From: a virus
UHGV virus genome: UHGV-0326656
Reading direction: 5' to 3' (one strand)
Length of the DNA stretch: 41,916 bases
In this document: piece by piece, positions 1 to 41,916 of the stretch
How positions within the stretch are numbered: position 1 is the stretch's first letter
Layout: each line of letters begins with the position of its first letter
Notes under the pieces: generated by a model
Database searches by the model: none
Told to the model about the DNA's origin: nothing
Seen by the model: the letters and a program-made list of their open reading frames with translations, nothing else
Position numbers and translations under genes: made by a program

Positions 1-150
1 CCTGGTAAAGCGGCGATTGGTCGTCTGAAAGGTGAGGAACTGGCGCAATATAATTTGTGGCTGGATTATCTGGACGCACTGGAACTGGTCGATACTTCCG
101 GTGCGCCAGATATTGAATGGCCTACTCCTCCGGCAGTTCAGGCCAGATGA
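1..150 (+). CDS. tail fibre assembly protein (Tfa), C-terminal part; 5' end lies outside the window
   Basis: Frame 1 is open to the TGA at 148-150; translation ...GRLKGEELAQYNLWLDYLDALELVDTSGAPDIEWPTPPAVQAR is nearly identical to the C-terminus of the 40731..41162 ORF. Confidence 0.8.
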   Translation, partial: PGKAAIGRLKGEELAQYNLWLDYLDALELVDTSGAPDIEWPTPPAVQAR

Positions 151-724
151 CATCCGGCGCGGTGCTGGTATCCGTTGCCGTCACCGCGTCAATGTAATCC
201 AGCACAGCGTTTAGTCGGGTGGTTTCTGTCTGCGTCAGCTTCCTCCCGGCCTGCAATTTCAGTTGAATCAGACTAATGGAAGCCATTGCAGTATCAATTA
301 GTGACTGTCGCTGTACTTCTGCCGCTTTTACTGCGGCACCATATTGTGCCTCAGTATCTGTCACCCATTTCTCACCATCCCATTTATCGTATGGCGTTAA
401 TGGGACGATAGTGGTTGTATTTTCAGGGTAATCACCCGGAGCTGTGATTTCTTTTGATTCTCCTGTTTCAGTGCTATAGACAAATTCACCACGATGGTCT
501 GGCACATATATCCACGAGTTAAAATCTTCAGAACGGCAAATTGCATAACCAGTTTTGTATGGGCCAGGGGCATCTAAACAGGAACATGCCGGAATGCCGA
601 CACCAATGGCAAGATATTCTGTTGATGTGGAAATATATTCCCGCGTTTCACCATCATAATTATAAACGGTTATGTCTCCCGCTTTTATGGCAATGAGTTC
701 GTTATTTAAGACAACTTTATTCAT
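122..724 (-). CDS. tail fibre assembly protein, inverted-orientation copy (Tfa')
   Basis: 200-aa ORF about 85% identical to the 41134..41736 ORF; convergent with the + strand Tfa, as in Mu G / e14 P invertible segments. Confidence 0.8.
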   Translation of the reverse strand: MNKVVLNNELIAIKAGDITVYNYDGETREYISTSTEYLAIGVGIPACSCLDAPGPYKTGYAICRSEDFNSWIYVPDHRGEFVYSTETGESKEITAPGDYPENTTTIVPLTPYDKWDGEKWVTDTEAQYGAAVKAAEVQRQSLIDTAMASISLIQLKLQAGRKLTQTETTRLNAVLDYIDAVTATDTSTAPDVIWPELPEE

Positions 725-1179
725 CAGGCAGCCCTCACGATATAATTAAAGGCAATGTTACGAGGTCGGTTTTCGTTTGCAGTTGGAACAACTCTGGAAG
801 CATCGAATGTTACTCGCTTTGCATAACCACCTTTAATTGAATCCGATGAAGCATCTCCGATGACGCTGGTTGTAAAAACGCCAGAATCAGAAGGATAGGT
901 ATTGAACCTGACATCCACTAATGCACCAATTATATTTCGAATGGCATCGCCCTGTGATGAAAGCAAGCTACGGTTAGTATCTATTCCTCTTCCGTCATCC
1001 CAGCCACGAATAAACTCACCACGTAAATCTGGCAATTTATTTGTCGGATAAACTTTTGCCAGTTCCGGATACTCTTCGGCAGAAAAAGGCGCACCATTGC
1101 ATTTCAGCCAGCCTGTTGGCGGAGTGGCTGAAGGCCACGGAACAGGCACACCAACGGGTAATGCCGAACCTTCTCCCAA
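724..1179 (-). CDS. alternative tail fibre C-terminal (receptor-binding) segment; no ATG of its own, opens inside the crossover site
   Basis: Frame opens with TTG inside the gix-like site; Gly/Pro-rich tip sequence ending NIAFNYIVRAA; stop overlaps the Tfa' start. Confidence 0.6.
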   Translation of the reverse strand: MGEGSALPVGVPVPWPSATPPTGWLKCNGAPFSAEEYPELAKVYPTNKLPDLRGEFIRGWDDGRGIDTNRSLLSSQGDAIRNIIGALVDVRFNTYPSDSGVFTTSVIGDASSDSIKGGYAKRVTFDASRVVPTANENRPRNIAFNYIVRAA

Positions 1180-1196
1180 ACCAACCTTTTAGAAAA
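1171..1196. other. hix/gix-type 26-bp invertase crossover site
   Basis: TTCTCCCAAACCAACCTTTTAGAAAA matches the remembered hixL site at about 20 of 26 positions; lies between the variable fibre segment and the invertase start; its reverse complement shares core TT and half-site GGTTTGGGAGAA with 40359..40384. Confidence 0.6.
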
Positions 1197-1249
1197 TGCA
1201 GTAATTCCGCTCAGATGGCATGATCCAAGCTTTTTAAGGGGCATTTCTC

Positions 1250-1360
1250 ATGCTCATCGGTTATGTACGTGTGTCAACAAATGACCAGAACACCGCATTG
1301 CAACGAAACGCACTGGAGTGCGCAGGATGTGAACTGATATTCGAGGATAAGATCAGCGGC
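1250..1360 (+). pseudogene. serine DNA invertase (Pin/Gin/Hin family), 5' fragment of 37 codons
   Basis: MLIGYVRVSTNDQNTALQRNALECAGCELIFEDKISG matches the invertase N-terminus including the catalytic-Ser motif; similarity stops after codon 37. Confidence 0.7.
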
Positions 1361-1588
1361 AGATGGGGGGGCAGTCAGGGGGTTGCCCAGCTCAATTTGT
1401 TTGATGAAAACGCGCCACGCCCGGGTAGTGAGAAACTGATGGAAGTGTTGGATCACCTCAACGCCAAAGACGGCAGGGGAACCTTGTACTTTACCAGGCA
1501 GGGTATCCAGCCACAGTTGCAGATGAAACGCGAGATGCTTTCACCTAGATATACAACGAGATATGATGACATATTAAGAGTTAAATAG
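1361..1588 (+). pseudogene. UmuC-like Y-family polymerase subunit, 3' fragment fused in frame to the invertase remnant
   Basis: Tail ...QLNLFDENAPRPGSEKLMEVLDHLNAKDGRGTLYFTRQGIQPQLQMKREMLSPRYTTRYDDILRVK resembles the UmuC/MucB C-terminus as remembered; no upstream umuC body. Confidence 0.5.
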
Positions 1589-1607
1589 AACATCAGCGAG
1601 GTGATAA

Positions 1608-2603
1608 ATGAAAGGGATATATTATGAGAATACTCGAACCTCTATACCGGGGTGGATATCAAACCTTCATGAAACTCAAAGGTTTGGTTACGCTTATGAA
1701 ACAAGTACTCACTTTGTTCATTTATATGGTAAAGCTGAACCTTTTAATGTCATATCAGTTGGCCTTACCGCAATACAAGGTAAAAGTGGGACTCTAAATG
1801 ATTGGGTTATAAATACATTTGGAGCAACTAACATCCAAACATTACAAAATGATATCGGACATGTTGTTGAAGGTGTCTGGAGACCATCTTTATATTATAG
1901 CGATGACATTCAAGGTGCGTTGTTAGTTGATCCGTTCGAGAAAATGTCGTCAGGACAAGCTCTGCGCAATCTTATTAATAAACTCGATGAATTATTTTTG
2001 TACATTGAGCCAAGCATCACAGGTCTGAAAGCATATAGCCATAAATGCAGGGAGCTATTAATTTTGGCTTGTACAGAAGTTGAGAATCAGTGGGTGTCAC
2101 TGATAAAAAAAACAAACCTAAATAATGTAGGGGCTAGATATACAACTAGGGACTATGTACGGCTTGCAGATAAATGTTTTTTAAAAGAATACAAGGTGAA
2201 TTTTAAAAATTACTCAGGCTTAAGAGATTTCACACCATTTTTATCTTGGGTTCCGACTGCCTCTACTGGCTCTTTACCTTGGTACGATGCTTATAATGGA
2301 ACTAAGCATGATAGGGAAGCAGGTTTTAATCTCGCATCATTGGAGAATGTGATGGATGCCTTATCTGCTTGTATAGTATTGTATTGTGTTAAATATGGAC
2401 CTTATGATTTGGTGTCTGGTGGGGATCTGCTTTCAGGAACGTTTAACGAGCATTTTTCTCTTAGTTTCATAAATAGTGATAAAAGTAGCTATTACGTTCC
2501 CGAATTGAATTTTAACGCAAACGCAATAACAGACTTGTGTGTGATTGACTGTTATAGAGAAAAACTCAACAAAGCATGGGTTACAGAACCTCTTGTTTTA
2601 TAG
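1608..2603 (+). CDS. hypothetical protein, 331 aa, AT-rich orphan (candidate accessory/defence gene)
   Basis: Long ORF with GAGGTGA ribosome-binding site 7 nt upstream; markedly AT-rich versus flanks; no family recognised. Confidence 0.65.
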   Translation: MKGIYYENTRTSIPGWISNLHETQRFGYAYETSTHFVHLYGKAEPFNVISVGLTAIQGKSGTLNDWVINTFGATNIQTLQNDIGHVVEGVWRPSLYYSDDIQGALLVDPFEKMSSGQALRNLINKLDELFLYIEPSITGLKAYSHKCRELLILACTEVENQWVSLIKKTNLNNVGARYTTRDYVRLADKCFLKEYKVNFKNYSGLRDFTPFLSWVPTASTGSLPWYDAYNGTKHDREAGFNLASLENVMDALSACIVLYCVKYGPYDLVSGGDLLSGTFNEHFSLSFINSDKSSYYVPELNFNANAITDLCVIDCYREKLNKAWVTEPLVL

Positions 2604-2841
2604 GTAGTATTAATTCAGCACCTTGATTTTTTGTATTTCCCACGGCACGCGTCACGGCGTGCCAGATAAACGTGTCGGCAGACGCTGTACCCTTAGCAAC
2701 AATCTCCTCCACCACTCTACCTACGACATTCTGCCGTATCCACTCACGAGCTGCTTCCGGTGATAGCACCAGCGGCCGGCGATCATGAATATCTACCAGC
2801 CCTTTATCCGCAGCAGTAGTTACAATCAGGAACCCCTCAGC
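2581..2841 (-). pseudogene. yedK: SRAP (YedK-like abasic-site peptidase), C-terminal part, separated from N-terminal part by IS3
   Basis: Minus-strand frame reads AEGFLIVTTAADKGLVDIHDRRPLVLSPEAAREW...GNTKNQGAELI, matching the YedK C-terminus; in frame with 4100..4525 once IS3 and one AGC copy are removed. Confidence 0.8.
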
Positions 2842-2897
2842 TGATCTTACCCAGCAATAGTGGACACGCAGCTAAGTGAGTAAACTCTCAGTCAGAG

Positions 2898-3206
2898 GTG
2901 ACTCACATGACAAAAACAGTATCAACCAGTAAAAAACCCCGTAAACAGCATTCGTCTGAATTTCGCAGTGAAGCCCTGAAGCTTGCTGAACGCATCGGTG
3001 TTACTGCCGCAGCCCGTGAACTCAGCCTGTATGAATCACAGCTCTACAACTGGCGCAGTAAACAGCAAAATCAGCAGACGTCTTCTGAACGTGAACTGGA
3101 GATGTCTACCGAGATTGCACGTCTCAAACGCCAGCTGGCAGAACGGGATGAAGAGCTGGCTATCCTCCAAAAGGCCGCGACATACTTCGCGAAGCGCCTG
3201 AAATGA
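2898..3206 (+). CDS. insE: IS3 transposase OrfA (HTH subunit)
   Basis: [42 protein letters not shown]... recognised as IS3 OrfA. Confidence 0.9.
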
Positions 3207-4069
3207 AGTATGTCTTTATTGAAAAACATCAGGCTGAGTTCAGCATCAAAGCAATGTGCCGCGTGCTCCGGGTGGCCCGCAGCGGCTGGTATACGTGGTG
3301 TCAGCGGCGGACAAGGATAAGCACGCGTCAGCAGTTCCGCCAACACTGCGACAGCGTTGTCCTCGCGGCTTTTACCCGGTCAAAACAGCGTTACGGTGCC
3401 CCACGCCTGACGGATGAACTGCGTGCTCAGGGTTACCCCTTTAACGTAAAAACCGTGGCGGCAAGCCTGCGCCGTCAGGGACTGAGGGCAAAGGCCTCCC
3501 GGAAGTTCAGCCCGGTCAGCTACCGCGCACACGGCCTGCCTGTGTCAGAAAATCTGTTGGAGCAGGATTTTTACGCCAGTGGCCCGAACCAGAAGTGGGC
3601 AGGAGACATCACGTACTTACGTACAGATGAAGGCTGGCTGTATCTGGCAGTGGTCATTGACCTGTGGTCACGTGCCGTTATTGGCTGGTCAATGTCGCCA
3701 CGCATGACGGCGCAACTGGCCTGCGATGCCCTGCAGATGGCGCTGTGGCGGCGTAAGAGGCCCCGGAACGTTATCGTTCACACGGATCGTGGAGGCCAGT
3801 ACTGTTCAGCAGATTATCAGGCGCAACTGAAGCGGCATAATCTGCGTGGAAGTATGAGCGCAAAAGGTTGCTGCTACGATAATGCCTGCGTGGAAAGCTT
3901 CTTTCATTCGCTGAAAGTGGAATGTATCCATGGAGAACACTTTATCAGCCGGGAAATAATGCGGGCAACGGTGTTTAATTATATCGAATGTGATTACAAT
4001 CGGTGGCGGCGGCACAGTTGGTGTGGCGGCCTCAGTCCGGAACAATTTGAAAACCAGAACCTCGCTTAG
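3203..4069 (+). CDS. insF: IS3 transposase OrfB (DDE catalytic subunit)
   Basis: 288-aa ORF overlapping orfA, with integrase-core motifs (...[10 protein letters not shown]..., ...HTDRGGQY...). Confidence 0.9.
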
Positions 4070-4099
4070 GCCTGTGTCCATATTACGTGGGTAGGATCA

Positions 4100-4525
4100 A
4101 GCTTCATCGCCACGTTCAAATGGTGTGCTGCCAATAGCGGCCATGAATATAGGCTGGCCGTCAGCCCTGCGAATGAAGTAGGGCTGTTTTATAATGCCTT
4201 CGCGCTTCCATTCGAACCAACCATCAGCAAAGCAAATTGCACGTCCATGCAACCAGAGAGGTTTGAACATTCGGCTGGTGGCCGCAGTTTCTGAGCGTGC
4301 GTTAATCAGCGGAGGTTTATTCCACCATCCGGGAGCGAATCCCCAGATAACAGGATCGAGGTGCAACTGTTCGTCGCGTTCGCTCAAAAGCAGAACTTTG
4401 GTACCGGGTGCAACGTTGAATCGTCCAATTGGTTCTGGAACGTATGGGATGTCACGCTCAGCTTCTTCTGATAGGAGGGCAAGATAGTCTTCACGCGTCA
4501 TTGATTGGGCGAAACGTCCGCACAT
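4100..4525 (-). pseudogene. yedK: SRAP (YedK-like), N-terminal part, truncated by IS3
   Basis: MCGRFAQSMTREDYLALL...FMAAIGSTPFERGDEA has the Cys2 catalytic start of SRAP/YedK; the frame runs into the IS3 end. Confidence 0.85.
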
Positions 4526-4566
4526 AGAAACCTCCAGTCACCAGACTGAAAGTATAGGGTAGGGAT

Positions 4567-4590
4567 ACAAAAAAGCCCGCATAAGCGGGC
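4567..4590 (-). terminator. rho-independent terminator-like hairpin
   Basis: On the minus strand GCCCGC-TTAT-GCGGGC followed by TTTTTT, between the ssrA fragment and the SRAP start. Confidence 0.45.
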
Positions 4591-4721
4591 TTTCATGTCA
4601 CTCGGGAGCCGCGGCTCCTTTACGTATCCTTTTTTGTCTCCTCACCGTCTAGTCGGTGTCCTGCTGAGACTGCTAACTTCCTGTTTTTGTTAGTGCTGTC
4701 CTGGCACTGTCCAATCATGAT

Positions 4722-4749
4722 TGGTGGAGCTGGCGGGAGTTGAACCCGC
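4722..4749 (-). other. ssrA: 28-nt 3' end of tmRNA (ssrA) ending CCA; att-core-like relic
   Basis: Minus strand reads GCGGGTTCAACTCCCGCCAGCTCCACCA, identical to the ssrA 3' terminus as remembered; upstream sequence does not continue ssrA. Confidence 0.7.
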
Positions 4750-5040
4750 AGACACGTCGTATGCAAGAACTTGCTGCGGCTGGATGGTGGACTTTCGATA
4801 GTGCGAGTATTGAATGATGTCCAGCCGTTATTGATTTTACGTATTTTTTGCATGAAAAGATTAGCACCTCATCCCACCGCTCCTCCATGATTTTACACCA
4901 CTGTCTCTAGAGCTCTGTGTGCCAGAAGCGGAAGTTCATACCTCTAAGTGGATATTTTGTTAAAATATGCCATCAAAATCCTTGCTACCTCATGGTTGAC
5001 AGTGATAAAAGTTGCACAAATTACTGAGAGAGAAATTACA

Positions 5041-5478
5041 ATGAGTGGAGATACCTCTGAGTTTCCTAATAAACTTCCCAGAAAGCCAATTGGTTGGCGT
5101 GAAGAATATAGTGATTTTACAGGTAGTATTATATTCTATATGATATTCCCGTTGCTTCCATTACTTTTTGAGTCAATTAACACAGGAACTCACCCTTCAA
5201 TACAATCATTAACAATTACTGCATCAATATACTCTTTTTCCATCGGTGTATCTTCTCGAGATAAAGCTATTTTTTGCTTAGGGATTTTTTGTGGTTTCAT
5301 TCTCGCTTATCTTTACGGTAAAGTTAGTGAGCCAAAAGTTATTATATATACCTGGTACTATGTAGTTACGGTGATACTACTGGCTGTAATATTTATATTT
5401 CATCTTCTCGAACGATTTAATAAACACGTGGTAGAATGTGAACCTGTTTTCTCCTTTAAGTTTACGAGAGGTATGTAA
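5041..5478 (+). CDS. hypothetical multi-pass membrane protein (alternative start at 4948)
   Basis: AT-rich ORF with several hydrophobic segments (FYMIFPLLPLLF, IFCLGIFCGFILAYLY, VVTVILLAVIFIF); perfect -35 TTGACA about 40 nt upstream; stop overlaps the next start (TAATG). Confidence 0.6.
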   Translation: MSGDTSEFPNKLPRKPIGWREEYSDFTGSIIFYMIFPLLPLLFESINTGTHPSIQSLTITASIYSFSIGVSSRDKAIFCLGIFCGFILAYLYGKVSEPKVIIYTWYYVVTVILLAVIFIFHLLERFNKHVVECEPVFSFKFTRGM

Positions 5479-5945
5479 TGGAGGATATTATATTTATGTA
5501 TGCTGGGTTGATAGTGTCTTCTTTAGCGGCAATTGTAGGCTTAGCTACATCTATCATGCATACTCGTAAAAAAGTTAAAGCTAATGAAGAGCTTGCAACT
5601 GAAATGGCAAAGAGCTTTAGTGAGCTTGAATCTATCAATAAAAGCATAGGGGATTTGGAAGCGACAATTAAAAGGATAGATGAAGATGAATTAAAGTTAA
5701 GAATAGCAATTGAATCTTTAAAGGAAATGACTTCTGATGAAAAAAAAGAATCTAGGGATATGTTGAAAAACATCGTTAATGATGAGGTGTTCATTAAAGT
5801 TCTTCTCGAAAGCTATAAAAAACTGGATACCCAGTCAAAGAAGGAGATTTATTTGACTTTTTCCAAGTCGACAGATAGAGGCCTTTATCGATATATAAAA
5901 AGAATAGCTTCATCAGTACTCGATAACTTAATGGTTAAAATATAA
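5478..5945 (+). CDS. hypothetical protein with N-terminal transmembrane helix and charged coiled-coil-like C-terminal region
   Basis: AT-rich; MEDIIFMYAGLIVSSLAAIVGLATSIM then K/E-rich heptad-like sequence; translationally coupled to the upstream ORF. Confidence 0.65.
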   Translation: MEDIIFMYAGLIVSSLAAIVGLATSIMHTRKKVKANEELATEMAKSFSELESINKSIGDLEATIKRIDEDELKLRIAIESLKEMTSDEKKESRDMLKNIVNDEVFIKVLLESYKKLDTQSKKEIYLTFSKSTDRGLYRYIKRIASSVLDNLMVKI

Positions 5946-6500
5946 ATGCGTGCGCGCGAGATACAATTTCTCGCGCATTGTGTAACCGGCGACAAAACCC
6001 TGTTATCATTATAGCGACCCGTTTAGATGGGCCATTTGTGCCCCAACAGCTTCTGGGTATAGATTTCCTCGGCCCTGTATAGATACTTTGCTAAAGAGTA
6101 TTTTAATGGTATTTTGCTTACGTACCATTCTTCTAACGAATGTCTGCCTTATCCTGTGAGCTGCCTTCGCTCAGCATTGGCCTGTTTCTCGTTGATTTAT
6201 ATACTGCGACACTAACATAGGCGGATATGTCCGCTCCTCGCTCATAACAGACATTCACTACAGTTATGGCAGAAAGGTATGCATGCTGGGTGGGGAAAGT
6301 ATGAAGGAAAAGAAAACTGCTGCGCTGTTTGTCGTCACGTTTATCTTCATTGGCTATGCAAGTCATAATACAAGGTGGGACAAAACTGAGACACATAAGG
6401 CCTCACAATGGCTTGCAAGGCTTTACATGTTTTGATGTGGTGGGACGTGTGAGCGCAGTGTTGATGGGGTAATGCTTTGAATTAGAAGCGGATTCTTATA

Positions 6501-6546
6501 ATTCGTAATGCGAAGGTCGTAGGTTCGACTCCTATTATCGGCACCA
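6501..6546 (+). other. thrW: 3' 46 nt of tRNA-Thr(CGU) (anticodon loop to CCA); prophage att core, not a complete tRNA
   Basis: ATTCGTAATGCGAAGGTCGTAGGTTCGACTCCTATTATCGGCACCA matches the tRNA-Thr(CGU) 3' part; upstream 30 nt cannot form acceptor/D arms; integrase gene starts 15 nt downstream on the opposite strand. Confidence 0.75.
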
Positions 6547-6560
6547 TTTAAATCAATAAG

Positions 6561-7724
6561 TTACACATCATTAGTACCTTCCTTATTTTTTGACTGGGAC
6601 AAATTTGGGACCGATGGGTTCAGGATCGAGTCTATTTGCCGTGCGTGCTCGGTAAGGTGATTAGGTGCAAGGTGAGCATATCGACGAACCATTTCGATAG
6701 ACTCCCAGCCTCCCATTTCCTGTAACACTGACAACGGGACTCCGGCTTGAACCAGCCAACTTGCCCAGGTGTGTCTCAGGTCGTGAAATCTGAAATCATC
6801 AATACCAGCCCGTCTCAGCGCCGCTTTCCAGGCTGTGTTTGCGTCATACCGCATCTTCCTTACTGTTGGCGCTTTCGTTCCGTCTGGTTTGGTACAGCTT
6901 TCCTTGTACACAAATACCCAACGGTGATGATTCCCGATTTGTTTTTTCAAAACGCGACATGCAGTATCATTCAGCGCAACGCCGATTGCGCGGTTTGATT
7001 TACTCTCTTCCGGGTTTATCCATGCCACTCGGCGCTGCATATCTATTTGTTGCCATTCAAGGTTGATGATGTTCGAGCGTCTTAAGCCTGTTGCCAGTGC
7101 AAATTCAACAACAGACTTTAATGGCTCCGGACATTCATCAATCAGCCTTTGTGCTTCATGGGGCTCCAGCCAGCGGATCCGTTTATTCTTTGGTTGAGGC
7201 ACTTTAATAATTGGTGCCTTATCCAGCATTTTCCATTCACGCTCTGCGGCTCTTAGTAGGGCCTTTATAAATGAAAGATGCGTAGCCTTCGTTGCAACGG
7301 ACGCTGGTTTTGGCGTGTATTCTGGAACAGGTTTCCCTTTTTTTCTGCATGCTTCTGCCCTGAGTTTCCAGTTTTCCTCATGACGCCGGTTCGTCATTTT
7401 CTGCATTGCTGAATAAATTTTTGATTCAGTAATGTCTCTTAGTTGCATTCCTGCGAAATGTTGAAGCCAGAATCCGATCCGGCTTTTGTCATCGTCCAGT
7501 GATTTTTTATGTGCTTTCTCTTCAAGCCACCTGACACATGCTTCCTCGAACGTTATATCAGGTATTTCACCAAGTTTACTGACCCGCCATGCTTCAGCCT
7601 TTAGCTTGTCATGGAGTTCTGTCGCCTGCCTTTTGTCCTTTGTTCCAAGAGACTGTTTAAATCTTTTACCGTTCGGCAATGTGAAACTGGCGTACCATAT
7701 TTCACCTCTGCGGAAGAGTGACAT
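6561..7724 (-). CDS. int: tyrosine-type phage integrase
   Basis: 387 aa with C-terminal catalytic region ...[39 protein letters not shown]; adjacent to tRNA fragment. Confidence 0.95.
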
Positions 7725-8295: not shown

Positions 8296-9170
8296 ACCCC
8301 TACCTCTTCGAATTCCAATTCCAATTGATCACCCCAGATTTCACATGACTCTGAACACGAACCGGTATCGAATCGCCTGGCCTGTACCATCGCCTGATAC
8401 AAATTTCTGTAGTCGCTGTTGGCAGACATTCTGGCAATTCCGTCAAGCGTCAGGTGACCACGGTACATAATGTCTTTACCTGTTCTGCGATGACCATCCC
8501 TGACGTGTTTGCCTGTAACCAGCTCATTAAAAACTCGCATCAGACCTGGTTCGTCTTTACATGCAAGCCCCAGCTTTTGCGTTGACTTTTTGATGCAGAA
8601 AACACAGTTCCCGAGATGCTCCGGGATTTGCAAATCAAAAGGTTGTTTTCGCCACCACCGGATAACATCCGACTTATCAAAATCTGACAGCTCGGCAAGA
8701 TACCGGACGCCCGATTTCGGTTTCAGCCTACGGGGTTCGTCTGCACGAATACCCAGCCATGTGATGTAATTACCTCGCCCGAAATGGTTATCGCAGTATT
8801 TCGTGAAAGGGATGAGTTTTAGCCTGTCAGTACAGAACGCGCCGCCGATGTATGGCGTGCCGTACTTTTTAACCATGTCCATAAACGGTTTAAGCACCGG
8901 CATTCGTGTCTGAATATCCTTTGGCTCCCATTCTGTATAACCATTTGGCTGCCCAAGCTCAGGATTTATATCGACCTGTAACACAGTTAGTGGTATGTCC
9001 CAGAGCTTTACAACCTCCCGGATAAAGCGGTATGTCAGCGGATGTTCGCAACCGGTATCCATAAAGATGTAGCAGACGTTATTGCCAGCCTTTCTTTGTT
9101 CTTCCATCAGGTGAACAAGATATGCGGATGTTCTCCCGCCAGAAAAACTAACTACATGAGTTATGCACAT
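8292..9170 (-). CDS. PAPS reductase-like (PP-loop ATP pyrophosphatase family) phage protein
   Basis: SFSGGRTSAYLVH PP-loop motif near N-terminus; start taken at MCITHVV... (the upstream in-frame extension overlaps the neighbouring gene). Confidence 0.7.
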   Translation of the reverse strand: MCITHVVSFSGGRTSAYLVHLMEEQRKAGNNVCYIFMDTGCEHPLTYRFIREVVKLWDIPLTVLQVDINPELGQPNGYTEWEPKDIQTRMPVLKPFMDMVKKYGTPYIGGAFCTDRLKLIPFTKYCDNHFGRGNYITWLGIRADEPRRLKPKSGVRYLAELSDFDKSDVIRWWRKQPFDLQIPEHLGNCVFCIKKSTQKLGLACKDEPGLMRVFNELVTGKHVRDGHRRTGKDIMYRGHLTLDGIARMSANSDYRNLYQAMVQARRFDTGSCSESCEIWGDQLELEFEEVGV

Positions 9171-40730: not shown

Positions 40731-41162
40731 ATGGAAAAGACATATTATTTTAATCCCTCTGATTCGGGATTTTATATTTCACCAGATAGCCAAACCATTC
40801 CTGAGAACGCTACGAAAATAAACTTTACTATTTATTCTGAGTTCGCAGGAGTTGCATGGCCTGATGGTAAAATACTTGGTTCAGATAAAAATGGTTTTCC
40901 AGCATGGCAGGATGCGCCACCACTTACCAGCGAAGAATTAATCTCAATCGCTGAATCAAATAAACAGCGATTAGTTAATCAGGCCAACGAATACATGAAC
41001 AGTAAACAATGGCCTGGTAAAGCGGCGATTGGTCGTCTGAAAGGTGAGGAACTGGCGCAATATAATTTGTGGCTGGATTATCTGGACGCACTGGAACTGG
41101 TCGATACTTCCAGTGCGCCAGATATTGAATGGCCTACGCCTCCGGCAGTTCAGGCCAGATGA
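40731..41162 (+). CDS. tail fibre assembly protein (Tfa)
   Basis: 143 aa immediately after the fibre gene; C-terminal 50 aa shared with the inverted copy. Confidence 0.85.
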   Translation: MEKTYYFNPSDSGFYISPDSQTIPENATKINFTIYSEFAGVAWPDGKILGSDKNGFPAWQDAPPLTSEELISIAESNKQRLVNQANEYMNSKQWPGKAAIGRLKGEELAQYNLWLDYLDALELVDTSSAPDIEWPTPPAVQAR

Positions 41163-41736
41163 CATCCGGCGCGGTGCTGGTATCTGTTGCCGTCACCGCG
41201 TCAATGTAATCCAGCACAGCGTTAAGTCTGGTTGTTTCTGCCTGCGTCGGTTTACGTCCGGCCTGCAATTTCAGTTGAATCAGACTGATGGAAGCCATTG
41301 CTGCATCAATCAGTGACTGGCGCTGTGCTTCTGCCGCTTCTACTGCGGCACCGTATTGTGCCTCAGTATCTGTCACCCATTTTTCACCATCCCATTTATC
41401 GTATGGCGTTAACGGGGCGATAGTGGTTGTATTTTCGGGATAGTCGCCTAGTGCTGTGATTTCTTTGGCATCTCCCGTTTCGGTGTTATAGACTATTTCA
41501 CCTCGATGGTCTGACACATATTCCCATGATTTTAAATCCACAGAACGGAAAATTGTATAACCAGCCTTATATGTACCAGGAGCGTCTAAACAGGAATATG
41601 CAGGGATACCGACACCAATGGCAAGATATTCATTTGAAGTGGAAATATATTCCCGTGTTTCGCCATCATAGTTATAGACGGTAATATTTCCCGCCTTTGT
41701 AGCAATAAACTCGCTATTTAATACAGCGTTATCCAT
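41134..41736 (-). CDS. tail fibre assembly protein, inverted-orientation copy (Tfa')
   Basis: 200 aa, convergent with Tfa; about 85% identical to the 122..724 ORF. Confidence 0.85.
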   Translation of the reverse strand: MDNAVLNSEFIATKAGNITVYNYDGETREYISTSNEYLAIGVGIPAYSCLDAPGTYKAGYTIFRSVDLKSWEYVSDHRGEIVYNTETGDAKEITALGDYPENTTTIAPLTPYDKWDGEKWVTDTEAQYGAAVEAAEAQRQSLIDAAMASISLIQLKLQAGRKPTQAETTRLNAVLDYIDAVTATDTSTAPDVIWPELPEA

Positions 41737-41737
41737 T

Positions 41738-41916
41738 ATGCAGCCCTCACGATATAGTTAAATGCAATATTCCGTGGGCGAGTATCGGCAGGAACGACAT
41801 ACATTTCACCAATTGCCCGCTCATTAGAGTTGTTCAGCAATAGGCTTGAGCCATTACTGTCATGACCCGTAATTAAGATATCATTGGACAAAATAAGTGA
41901 GCCCGTACCTGCAGGA
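41738..41916 (-). CDS. alternative tail fibre C-terminal segment, partial (runs off the window)
   Basis: Minus-strand frame ...NDILITGHDSNGSSLLLNNSNERAIGEMYVVPADTRPRNIAFNYIVRAA with stop overlapping the Tfa' start; same terminal motif as the 724..1179 ORF. Confidence 0.7.

What the first reader, a model, noticed from the sequence alone, without database searches (positions are those of the whole stretch)
4722..4749. Orphan 28-nt ssrA 3' end on the minus strand
GCGGGTTCAACTCCCGCCAGCTCCACCA matches the tmRNA 3' terminus exactly, but the upstream sequence is unrelated to ssrA. That is the signature of an att core left by an ssrA-integrating element. It is followed on the same strand by a hairpin plus T-run and then the SRAP start.
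Basis: partly seen in the sequence, partly recalled or inferred. Interest (0 to 1): 0.45.

Follow-up and report, generated by a model that had tools for sequence, protein, structure and literature searches.

The report
Relic ssrA attachment site inside thrW prophage
The 28 bases really are the end of the tmRNA gene, but they sit inside a prophage that integrates at a tRNA-Thr gene, as a leftover attachment site from a relative that integrates at the tmRNA gene; this is ordinary phage mosaicism.

Summary
Window 4722-4749 (-) equals the last 28 nt of E. coli ssrA, occurs once, and has unrelated sequence upstream.

Homology to the ssrA locus covers 183 nt (4567-4749): the 28 nt, the 155-nt 3' trailer and the ssrA terminator.

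The window is not at ssrA. A 46-nt tRNA-Thr (thrW) 3' fragment lies at 6501-6546. It is followed by an integrase 99% identical to one beside thrW in E. coli A2. This is the real junction between two tandem prophages related to the Shigella phage SfV.

The ssrA piece lies 1.75 kb inside the left prophage. About 154 E. coli genomes carry the same piece joined to the same upstream block; all six copies I inspected lie at a thrW-prophage right end.

ssrA-integrating relatives (phage LLS; prophages in strains 19AR1321 and A29) carry the same core, trailer and terminator as their attachment site, with an unrelated integrase. So this is a relic half attachment site, left when the integration module was swapped.

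Its 5' edge falls at the T-stem/T-loop boundary. One cargo block is 99% identical between an ssrA-attached copy and an orphan copy, so exchange continues.

Low novelty, modest interest.

The parts
4722..4749 (-). Orphan copy of the last 28 nt of ssrA: T-stem, T-loop, T-stem, acceptor 3' strand and CCA.
   Evidence: Exact and unique in the window. Identical to annotated ssrA. With the following A it equals the 29-bp ssrA identity in phage LLS attP.
4567..4721 (-). Homologue of the ssrA 3' trailer and intrinsic terminator. It corresponds to the right-hand arm (P') of an ssrA-type attP. The hairpin is at 4569-4593.
   Evidence: Together with the 28-mer (alignments spanning 4561/4569-4749), this block is 90.6% identical to the empty-site strain MP1, 92.8% to LLS attP, and 92.6% to the ssrA-attached copy in A29. 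Over the trailer alone the window is 86.8% identical to native MP1 and 88.8-91.2% to phage-borne copies. Fold and hairpin energy.
4711..4724 (.). Perfect 14-bp palindrome CCAATCATGATTGG spanning the ssrA CCA end. It could be an integrase core-type binding site (inference).
   Evidence: Read directly from the sequence. Conserved in native loci, in LLS attP and in the orphan copies.
4750..4935 (.). Conserved non-coding block that in other phages directly follows the stop codon of the invertase gene pinE. It forms the 5' junction partner of the ssrA piece.
   Evidence: Aligns to phage phi458 and to E. coli E1654 immediately after pinE. Also found in the ykgJ-ecpE intergenic region. The junction lies in the microhomology GCGG(G/T)TT.
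4097..4525 (-). N-terminal 142 codons of the SRAP gene, cut off by IS3. This is the cargo gene next to the terminator.
   Evidence: Pfam PF02586, profile positions 1-136 of 214. Intact in TB06052 and in viral contig L016. In 19AR1321 the homologous gene follows the true ssrA directly.
2842..4099 (.). IS3 insertion in the SRAP gene, with a 3-bp target duplication AGC (2839-2841 and 4100-4102).
   Evidence: 99.7% identical to an IS3 copy in A29. The flanks are contiguous in L001 and L016.
4948..5945 (+). Two phage genes of unknown function (176 and 155 aa) in the variable cargo slot between the relic site and the thrW-type attachment site.
   Evidence: Hits to PHROG families 22626 and 580 only; no defence-system hit. 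Other genomes carry different cargo between the same flanks.
6501..6546 (+). 46-nt 3' fragment of tRNA-Thr (thrW). This is the real junction: right end (attR) of the left prophage and left end (attL) of the right prophage.
   Evidence: Longest thrW suffix found in the window is 46 nt. Window 6376-6600, which spans this fragment and the 3' end of the integrase gene, is 98% identical to the annotated integrase/attP region of Shigella phages SfII, SfIV, SfV and SfI.
6561..7724 (-). Tyrosine integrase of the right-hand prophage, thrW-specific type.
   Evidence: PF00589, E 3e-48. 99% identical to the A2 integrase next to thrW. Only 27% identical to the LLS ssrA-type integrase. It is the only integrase-like sequence in the window.
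1250..1588 (+). Fused remnant of the invertase N-terminus and the UmuC C-terminus: a deletion scar in the cargo region of the left prophage.
   Evidence: Pfam Resolvase at residues 3-39 and DUF4113 at residues 61-111. UmuDC sits next to SRAP in 19AR1321.

Best explanation
The 28-mer is the core of a relic ssrA-type phage attachment site. It now lies inside a prophage that integrates at thrW.

Phages of the LLS type integrate into the 3' end of ssrA. Their attP holds a copy of the ssrA 3' end, plus a copy of the ssrA trailer and terminator. After integration these rebuild a complete, properly terminated tmRNA gene. Cargo genes (SRAP-umuDC, or a restriction-modification set) lie directly after that terminator.

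In the window's phage lineage this half of the site (core plus right arm plus cargo) has been joined to a block that normally follows the invertase gene pinE. The joint lies at the T-stem/T-loop boundary. The lineage uses a different integration module, a P22/SfV-type integrase with a 46-bp thrW core. The ssrA piece therefore delimits nothing here.

The window itself shows two such prophages in tandem. Their true junction is the thrW fragment at 6501-6546.

Shown: the anatomy, the homologies, the integrase types and the genomic contexts.

Inferred: how the hybrid arose. One route is integration by an LLS-type integrase at a weak secondary site after pinE, followed by deletion between the two collinear prophages. 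The other is a single illegitimate crossover at the GCGG(G/T)TT microhomology. Also inferred: the relic now has no site-specific role. At most its terminator insulates the cargo gene, and its 183 nt offer homology for RecA-dependent cargo exchange with ssrA-resident prophages.
For: 1. Identity and extent.
2. True junction: a 46-nt thrW fragment sits 14 nt from the integrase gene, the same spacing as at genuine thrW in A2. The integrase is 99% identical to the A2 thrW integrase, and the junction DNA (window 6376-6600) is 98% identical to the integrase/attP region of SfII/SfV.
3. Genomes with one prophage show the order thrW, int..., tail, pinE, cargo, terminator, trailer, 28-mer, block, cargo, thrW', yagP', paoD (A2; D9; JS316).
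4. About 154 of 5426 E. coli genomes hold the ssrA piece joined to the same upstream block. At least 54 listed genomes also pair that stretch with the sequence leading up to the thrW' core, about 2 kb away.
5. ssrA-integrating counterparts exist. Phage LLS has the collinear layout invertase, cargo, terminator, trailer, ssrA' (attP), hypothetical gene, int. The 19AR1321 prophage lies in ssrA between 183-nt repeats: the proximal trailer is phage-type and followed by SRAP-umuCD, and the distal trailer is 100% native. Their integrases are 86-87% identical to LLS Int.
6. The window holds no LLS-type integrase.
7. The junction falls at GCGG(G/T)|TTCAACT. The T variant matches the ssrA-less phi458 and E1654 sequence.
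8. The D9 copy is decayed: one substitution, a 1-nt deletion and a truncated trailer.
9. Continuing exchange: JS316's restriction-modification cargo plus orphan block is 99.07% identical over 4181 nt to the block attached to true ssrA in A29, and the match ends at the 5' edge of the 28-mer.
Against: - The left prophage's own integrase lies outside the window. Its thrW type is inferred from its thrW' right end, from A2's complete prophage, and from 100% identity of window 1-2842 to a 41-kb viral contig.
- The ssrA-derived 23-28 nt are perfect in 5 of 6 sampled orphan lineages, yet their trailers differ by 7.5-9.4%. That could mean constraint rather than a dead relic.
- LLS integration at ssrA is deduced in the literature, not demonstrated.
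- The crossover position for LLS-type integrases is unknown.
Confidence: 0.78

Rival explanations
1. Live secondary attachment site or recombination hinge. The orphan core, with its intact palindrome and T-arm, is still recognised by LLS-type ssrA integrases supplied by co-resident phages. It would then act as a second, prophage-borne attB. This would allow phage-in-prophage integration, integrase-mediated cargo swapping, or rearrangements between the ssrA and thrW loci.
For: The core is perfect in 5 of 6 sampled orphan lineages despite 7.5-9.4% trailer divergence. The junction lies exactly at the T-stem/T-loop boundary and comes in two variants (G or T), as expected for strand exchange in a T-loop overlap. 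Two different cargo sets (SRAP; restriction-modification) are shared between ssrA-attached and orphan copies, one of them at 99% identity ending at the core edge. A bacterial attB needs only core-type sites (established knowledge of tyrosine integrases).
Against: I found no genome with an LLS-type prophage inserted at the orphan, though I did not search systematically. The D9 copy is decayed. Repeated homologous exchange with functional ssrA or attP copies explains both the core conservation and the shared cargo without any integrase.
Confidence: 0.12
2. Direct capture of chromosomal DNA. A prophage sitting at or next to ssrA excised aberrantly, as in specialised transduction. It carried off the native ssrA terminator, the trailer and the last 28 nt of the gene.
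For: The 183 nt are homologous to the native unoccupied locus (90.6% to MP1 over 181 nt). The junction has only 4-7 nt of microhomology, typical of illegitimate recombination.
Against: The free phage LLS already carries the same 183 nt as part of its attP, so no fresh capture is needed. The window's trailer is closer to phage-borne copies (88.8-91.2%) than to the native one (86.8%), and it shares LLS-specific variants. Capture may still be the remote origin of the LLS-type attP arm.
Confidence: 0.07
3. One reading: the 28-mer is the displaced core (attR or attL) of an element currently integrated in ssrA at this locus, possibly one of a tandem array at ssrA.
For: Exact ssrA 3' end with unrelated upstream sequence. 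In 19AR1321 the homologous terminator and SRAP gene directly follow true ssrA.
Against: There is no tmRNA gene in 41.9 kb. The flanking junction is a thrW fragment with a thrW-type integrase. The six related copies whose surroundings I inspected all lie at the right end of a thrW-integrated prophage, next to a thrW 3' fragment. In A2, D9 and JS316 that fragment is followed by yagP'/paoD, and in A2 intact thrW next to proA is seen at the other end. No ssrA-type integrase is present.
Confidence: 0.02
4. The fragment is part of an expressed tRNA-like or small RNA. It would be a T-arm and acceptor mimic, transcribed from the upstream block and ended at the terminator.
For: The 206-nt stretch folds better than shuffled versions (z = -3.25) and ends in a strong terminator.
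Against: That fold signal is expected from the inherited T-arm and terminator. No promoter-like site lies upstream on the minus strand. There is no ARAGORN call and no Rfam family. The 5' acceptor strand is missing.
Confidence: 0.01

Closest known systems
attP of the lambdoid coliphage LLS (PQ299149; Genome Res 2025, PMC12315714) and related prophages integrated in E. coli ssrA (strains 19AR1321, A29)
   Same: Identical 29-bp ssrA 3' end. The 181-nt aligned block (core plus trailer and terminator) is 92.8% identical to LLS. The position in the genome is the same: after the tail-fibre, invertase and cargo genes. In 19AR1321 and A29 the neighbouring cargo is also the same (SRAP-umuDC; restriction-modification).
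   Different: Here the left arm, the 11-nt ssrA-like extension and the cognate integrase are absent. They are replaced by the pinE-downstream block, other cargo and a thrW-type attP with its integrase. The site is therefore not this prophage's attachment site.
Shigella serotype-converting phages SfV, SfII, SfIV and SfI, and P22-type thrW integration
   Same: The functional integration module in the window: a 46-bp thrW core next to the integrase. The DNA spanning the core and the integrase 3' end is 98% identical to these phages. A variable cargo slot lies next to attP, where the Sf phages carry their O-antigen glucosylation (gtr) genes (the gtr position is from established knowledge).
   Different: A search of the phage collection with the ssrA piece and its trailer (window 4560-4760) returned none of these Sf phages.
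The tDNA-plus-displaced-fragment signature of integrated islands (Islander principle, PMC4383910; Williams 2002 integration sublocations)
   Same: A 3' tDNA fragment that starts at the T-stem. Damaged fragments with a small deletion near the discriminator base are seen in relatives (19AR1321 distal copy, D9).
   Different: The fragment is not paired with its tDNA across an island. In the relatives where the far end was seen or the neighbouring genes identify the locus, it lies at the thrW locus rather than at ssrA, so it would fail Islander's length and integrase filters.
P2-like ssrA-integrating phages (Salmonella RE2010 and SEN8, Klebsiella ST437-OXA245phi4.1, Yersinia MLG42) and the E. coli K-12 element CP4-57
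   Same: The P2-like phages carry exactly the same 29-nt block (window 4721-4749). CP4-57 uses the same host gene.
   Different: They share no homology beyond the 29 nt. Their integrase families are unrelated: CP4-57 IntA is 17% identical to LLS Int according to PMC12315714.

Membership tests
Boundary (attL/attR) of an element integrated in ssrA | A fragment identical to the 3' end of the tmRNA gene | tested here: met
   28 of 28 nt identical and unique in the window.
Boundary (attL/attR) of an element integrated in ssrA | An intact cognate ssrA in the same orientation at island distance, with the element in between | tested here: not met
   No tmRNA gene in 41.9 kb. The six related copies inspected all lie at a thrW-prophage right end beside a thrW 3' fragment. 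Sequence outside the window could not be read.
Boundary (attL/attR) of an element integrated in ssrA | A cognate (ssrA-specific) tyrosine integrase within the element | tested here: not met
   The only integrase in the window is the thrW type: 99% identical to A2, 27% to LLS Int.
Functional LLS-type ssrA attP | ssrA 3'-end identity block plus homologous trailer and terminator arm | tested here: met
   29 nt identical; 92.8% identity over 181 nt to LLS.
Functional LLS-type ssrA attP | Left arm and cognate integrase/excisionase genes next to the core | tested here: not met
   Upstream sequence is the pinE-downstream block, not the LLS left arm. No LLS-type integrase is present.
Functional LLS-type ssrA attP | Recombination with ssrA catalysed by the integrase | not testable with these tools
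   Needs an integration or excision assay. Even for LLS this is deduced, not shown.
P22/SfV-type thrW attachment site (for window 6501-6546) | 46-bp identity with the thrW 3' end, next to an SfV-family integrase | tested here: met
   46-nt thrW suffix. Window 6376-6600, spanning the core and the integrase 3' end, is 98% identical to SfII/SfIV/SfV/SfI. Integrase 99% identical to the one next to thrW in A2.
tmRNA or tRNA-like gene | A complete fold recognised by ARAGORN or by an Rfam covariance model | tested here: not met
   ARAGORN found 0 genes. Rfam at curated thresholds found 0. RF00023 scored 16.9 bits against a cut-off of 47.

The most novel reading that the evidence does not exclude
The orphan ssrA core is not dead. 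It would be a portable secondary attB and homology hinge carried by thrW prophages. LLS-type ssrA integrases, or RecA acting on the 183-nt block, would use it to shuttle cargo modules (SRAP-umuDC, restriction-modification) between prophages at ssrA and at thrW. It could occasionally also drive phage-in-prophage integration or ssrA-thrW chromosomal rearrangements. The conserved junction at the T-loop would be the footprint of such an integrase event.
Probability: 0.15. Interest if true: 0.5.

Novelty: new member of a known kind. Interest (0 to 1): 0.25.

Why it matters
This is mainly a cautionary and clarifying result. A perfect tDNA 3' fragment is normally read as an island boundary. Here it lies inside a prophage that uses another site, so boundary callers and readers would place the edge 1.75 kb off and name the wrong target gene.

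It also documents, with sequence-level junctions, a swap of integration modules between ssrA-integrating and thrW-integrating temperate coliphages. It shows that LLS-type phages carry a replacement ssrA terminator along with the gene end.

If the relic still recombines, it would be a concrete route for moving cargo genes between two prophage hot spots.

Tried and rejected
- Tandem array at ssrA. This was my first model, with the 28-mer as the junction of two ssrA prophages. I rejected it once the 46-nt thrW fragment was found at 6501-6546, and once the A2, D9 and JS316 contexts showed thrW and pao flanks.
- Circular or permuted phage contig. The window's two ends match at only 88.8% identity, so they belong to two different prophages, not to an overlap.
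- Chromosomal inversion between ssrA and thrW prophages. I worked this through on paper. It does not reproduce the observed gene order.
- A29 prophage at ileY. I first read it this way. Its integrase is 87% identical to LLS Int, so it is an ssrA-type prophage whose far end was disturbed by IS3.
- Crossover at the palindrome after CCA. I inferred this from the damaged distal copy in 19AR1321, but that copy is equally explained by the known damage of displaced tDNA fragments. Left open.
- Junction-specific exact pattern search. It found 2 viral contigs and none among species-representative genomes.
- Rfam relaxed search. It gave only terminator-like chance hits and a sub-threshold tmRNA 3' end.
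- Consensus terminator scan. It did not list the 4569-4593 hairpin. Folding shows it clearly.
- Defence-system and Pfam searches of the two adjacent genes of unknown function found nothing.

Full report
**1. Observation**

The minus strand of window 4722-4749 reads GCGGGTTCAACTCCCGCCAGCTCCACCA. This is the only match in the window even with three mismatches allowed, and none was expected by chance. It is identical to the last 28 nt of annotated E. coli ssrA: the T-stem, T-loop, T-stem, acceptor 3' strand and CCA. Sequence 5' of it is unrelated to ssrA.

ARAGORN finds no tRNA or tmRNA gene in the window. Rfam finds nothing at curated thresholds. With a relaxed threshold the tmRNA model reaches only 16.9 bits against a cut-off of 47.

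Downstream on the same strand lie a strong hairpin plus T-run (4569-4593, -20.8 kcal/mol) and the start of an SRAP gene at 4525 (PF02586).

**2. The match to the ssrA locus is 183 nt, not 28**

Strain MP1 has an unoccupied site with the order smpB, ssrA, glaH. Window 4569-4749 aligns to the end of its ssrA and the following 153 nt, through the native intrinsic terminator, at 90.6% identity. Other ssrA loci extend the match to 4567 or 4561. Thousands of E. coli genomes match this stretch at about 90% at their annotated ssrA.

**3. The window is not at ssrA**

- A 46-nt suffix of tRNA-Thr (thrW) lies at 6501-6546 on the plus strand.
- It sits 14 nt from the end of a tyrosine integrase gene (6561-7724, PF00589).
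- That integrase is 99% identical to the one next to genuine thrW in E. coli A2.
- The DNA spanning the thrW fragment and the integrase 3' end (window 6376-6600) is 98% identical to the integrase/attP region of Shigella phages SfII, SfIV, SfV and SfI.
- Window 6547-41916 is a prophage with an SfV/e14-like head and contractile tail.
- Window 1-6546 is the right end of a second, related prophage. The two tail-fibre-assembly regions (1-756 and 41013-41768) are 88.8% identical.
- Window 1-2842 and 4100-6435 are 100% and 99.9% identical to a 41-kb viral contig that lacks the IS3.
- IS3 (2842-4099, target duplication AGC) splits the SRAP gene.

So the window is a tandem thrW array. The true inter-prophage junction is the thrW fragment, and the ssrA piece lies 1.75 kb inside the left prophage.

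**4. Related genomes confirm this**

A2 carries a single prophage with the following order:

proA, thrW, int, early genes, head, tail, pinE, cargo, terminator, trailer, 28-mer, conserved block, the same 176- and 155-aa genes as in the window, thrW' (46 nt), yagP', paoD.

D9, JS316 and F2_81 have the same architecture with other cargo. TB06052 matches the window at 99.5-100% but has a different element in tandem after thrW'.

About 154 of 5426 complete E. coli genomes hold the ssrA piece joined to the same upstream block. At least 54 listed genomes also pair that stretch with the sequence leading up to the thrW' core, about 2 kb away, usually with different cargo in between.

**5. Where the piece comes from**

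The isolated temperate phage LLS has this collinear layout:

tail fibres, invertase, cargo, terminator, trailer, "tmRNA pseudogene" (annotated attP), hypothetical gene, int, xis, yfdRQP-like early genes.

Its authors deduce integration into the ssrA 3' end from a 29-bp identity (PMC12315714). That 29-mer is window 4721-4749.

In strain 19AR1321 a prophage with an integrase 86% identical to LLS Int sits in ssrA between two 183-nt repeats. The copy joined to the ssrA body carries a phage-type trailer followed by SRAP-umuCD; that stretch, from ssrA's last 28 nt into SRAP, is 87% identical to window 4206-4749. The distal copy carries a trailer 100% identical to the native one, plus a damaged ssrA fragment.

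LLS-type phages thus bring their own ssrA end, trailer and terminator, with cargo directly behind. The window holds no LLS-type integrase, and its own integrase is only 27% identical to LLS Int.

**6. The junction**

The 5' partner (window 4750-4935) is a conserved non-coding block. In phage phi458 and in E. coli E1654 it follows the pinE stop codon directly, with no ssrA piece. It also occurs between ykgJ and ecpE.

- phi458 reads ...GTGTCTGCGGTTTTATATAA.
- The window reads ...GTGTCTGCGGGTTCAACTCC.
- JS316, F2_81 and D9 read ...GCGGT/ACGGT|TTCAACTCC.

The joint therefore lies within GCGG(G/T)TT, exactly at the T-stem/T-loop boundary, and it comes in two variants.

Two origins fit the data:

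- An LLS-type integrase recombined attP with this weak secondary site. A deletion between the two collinear tandem prophages then gave precisely the observed order.
- A single illegitimate crossover occurred at the microhomology.

I cannot decide between them.

**7. Is it still doing anything?**

- The D9 copy is decayed: G to T, a 1-nt deletion and a truncated trailer. This argues against strict constraint.
- Yet five other sampled lineages keep the 23-28 nt perfect while their trailers differ by 7.5-9.4%.
- JS316's restriction-modification cargo, terminator, trailer and ssrA end are 99.07% identical over 4181 nt to the block attached to true ssrA in A29. The match ends at the 5' edge of the 28-mer. 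A29's integrase is LLS-type.

The simplest reading is repeated homologous exchange between thrW prophages and ssrA-resident prophages, using the 183-nt block as one flank. This keeps re-seeding the core. A live role as a secondary attachment site is not excluded.

**8. Comparison and verdict**

The piece works like, and descends from, an LLS-type ssrA attP. It fails membership as a functional attP because it has no left arm and no cognate integrase. It fails membership as a boundary of an ssrA-integrated element because it has no ssrA, no cognate integrase and the wrong locus.

The Islander principle is that a tDNA and its displaced fragment mark the ends of an island (PMC4383910). That principle would mislead here.

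The finding is a real and correctly described sequence feature whose interpretation needs correcting. It is a relic half attachment site from an integration-module swap. Novelty is low, with modest interest as a caveat for boundary calling and as a possible hinge for cargo exchange.

Noticed in passing
window 4750-4935: Conserved non-coding block of about 100-190 nt. In phage phi458 and E. coli E1654 it directly follows the pinE stop codon. It also occurs in the ykgJ-ecpE intergenic region (85.6%). Genome annotation sometimes labels it a 'capsid protein' fragment. No Rfam family matches it and its function is unknown.
   Followed up: partly
window 1250-1588 (+): The ORF fuses the first ~39 residues of a Pin-type resolvase to the C-terminal DUF4113 of UmuC. 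This is a deletion scar that removed most of pin and umuDC from the left prophage.
   Followed up: partly
window 2842-4099: IS3 copy with a 3-bp target duplication AGC, inserted in the SRAP gene. Absent from the otherwise identical TB06052 and viral-contig sequences.
   Followed up: yes
window 4711-4724, and native ssrA loci: Perfect 14-bp palindrome CCAATCATGATTGG spanning the CCA end of ssrA. Conserved in native loci, in LLS attP and in orphan copies. It may be an integrase core-binding site.
   Followed up: no
L012 35855-35895 (19AR1321) and L004 about 9070-9100 (D9): Displaced or orphan ssrA fragments with small deletions at the same spot (CAGC^TCCACCA): 5 nt and 1 nt. This recalls the 'damaged tDNA fragments' noted in the Islander paper.
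   Followed up: partly
L001 22448-35018 (E. coli TB06052): A 12.5-kb element with its own integrase sits in tandem after the thrW' fragment where the window has a full prophage. It is bounded by an 18-nt thrW fragment and followed by an ABC-three-component system and conjugation genes.
   Followed up: no
window 4948-5945 (+): Two co-oriented genes (176 and 155 aa) sit in the cargo slot next to attP, where the Sf phages carry gtr genes. They hit only PHROG families of unknown function and no defence-system model. Other genomes have different cargo between the same flanks.
   Followed up: partly
window 6227-6435: About 210 nt near the thrW-type attP are 89% identical to a region of phage 21 and several lambda-like phages. 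This is another mosaic joint.
   Followed up: no
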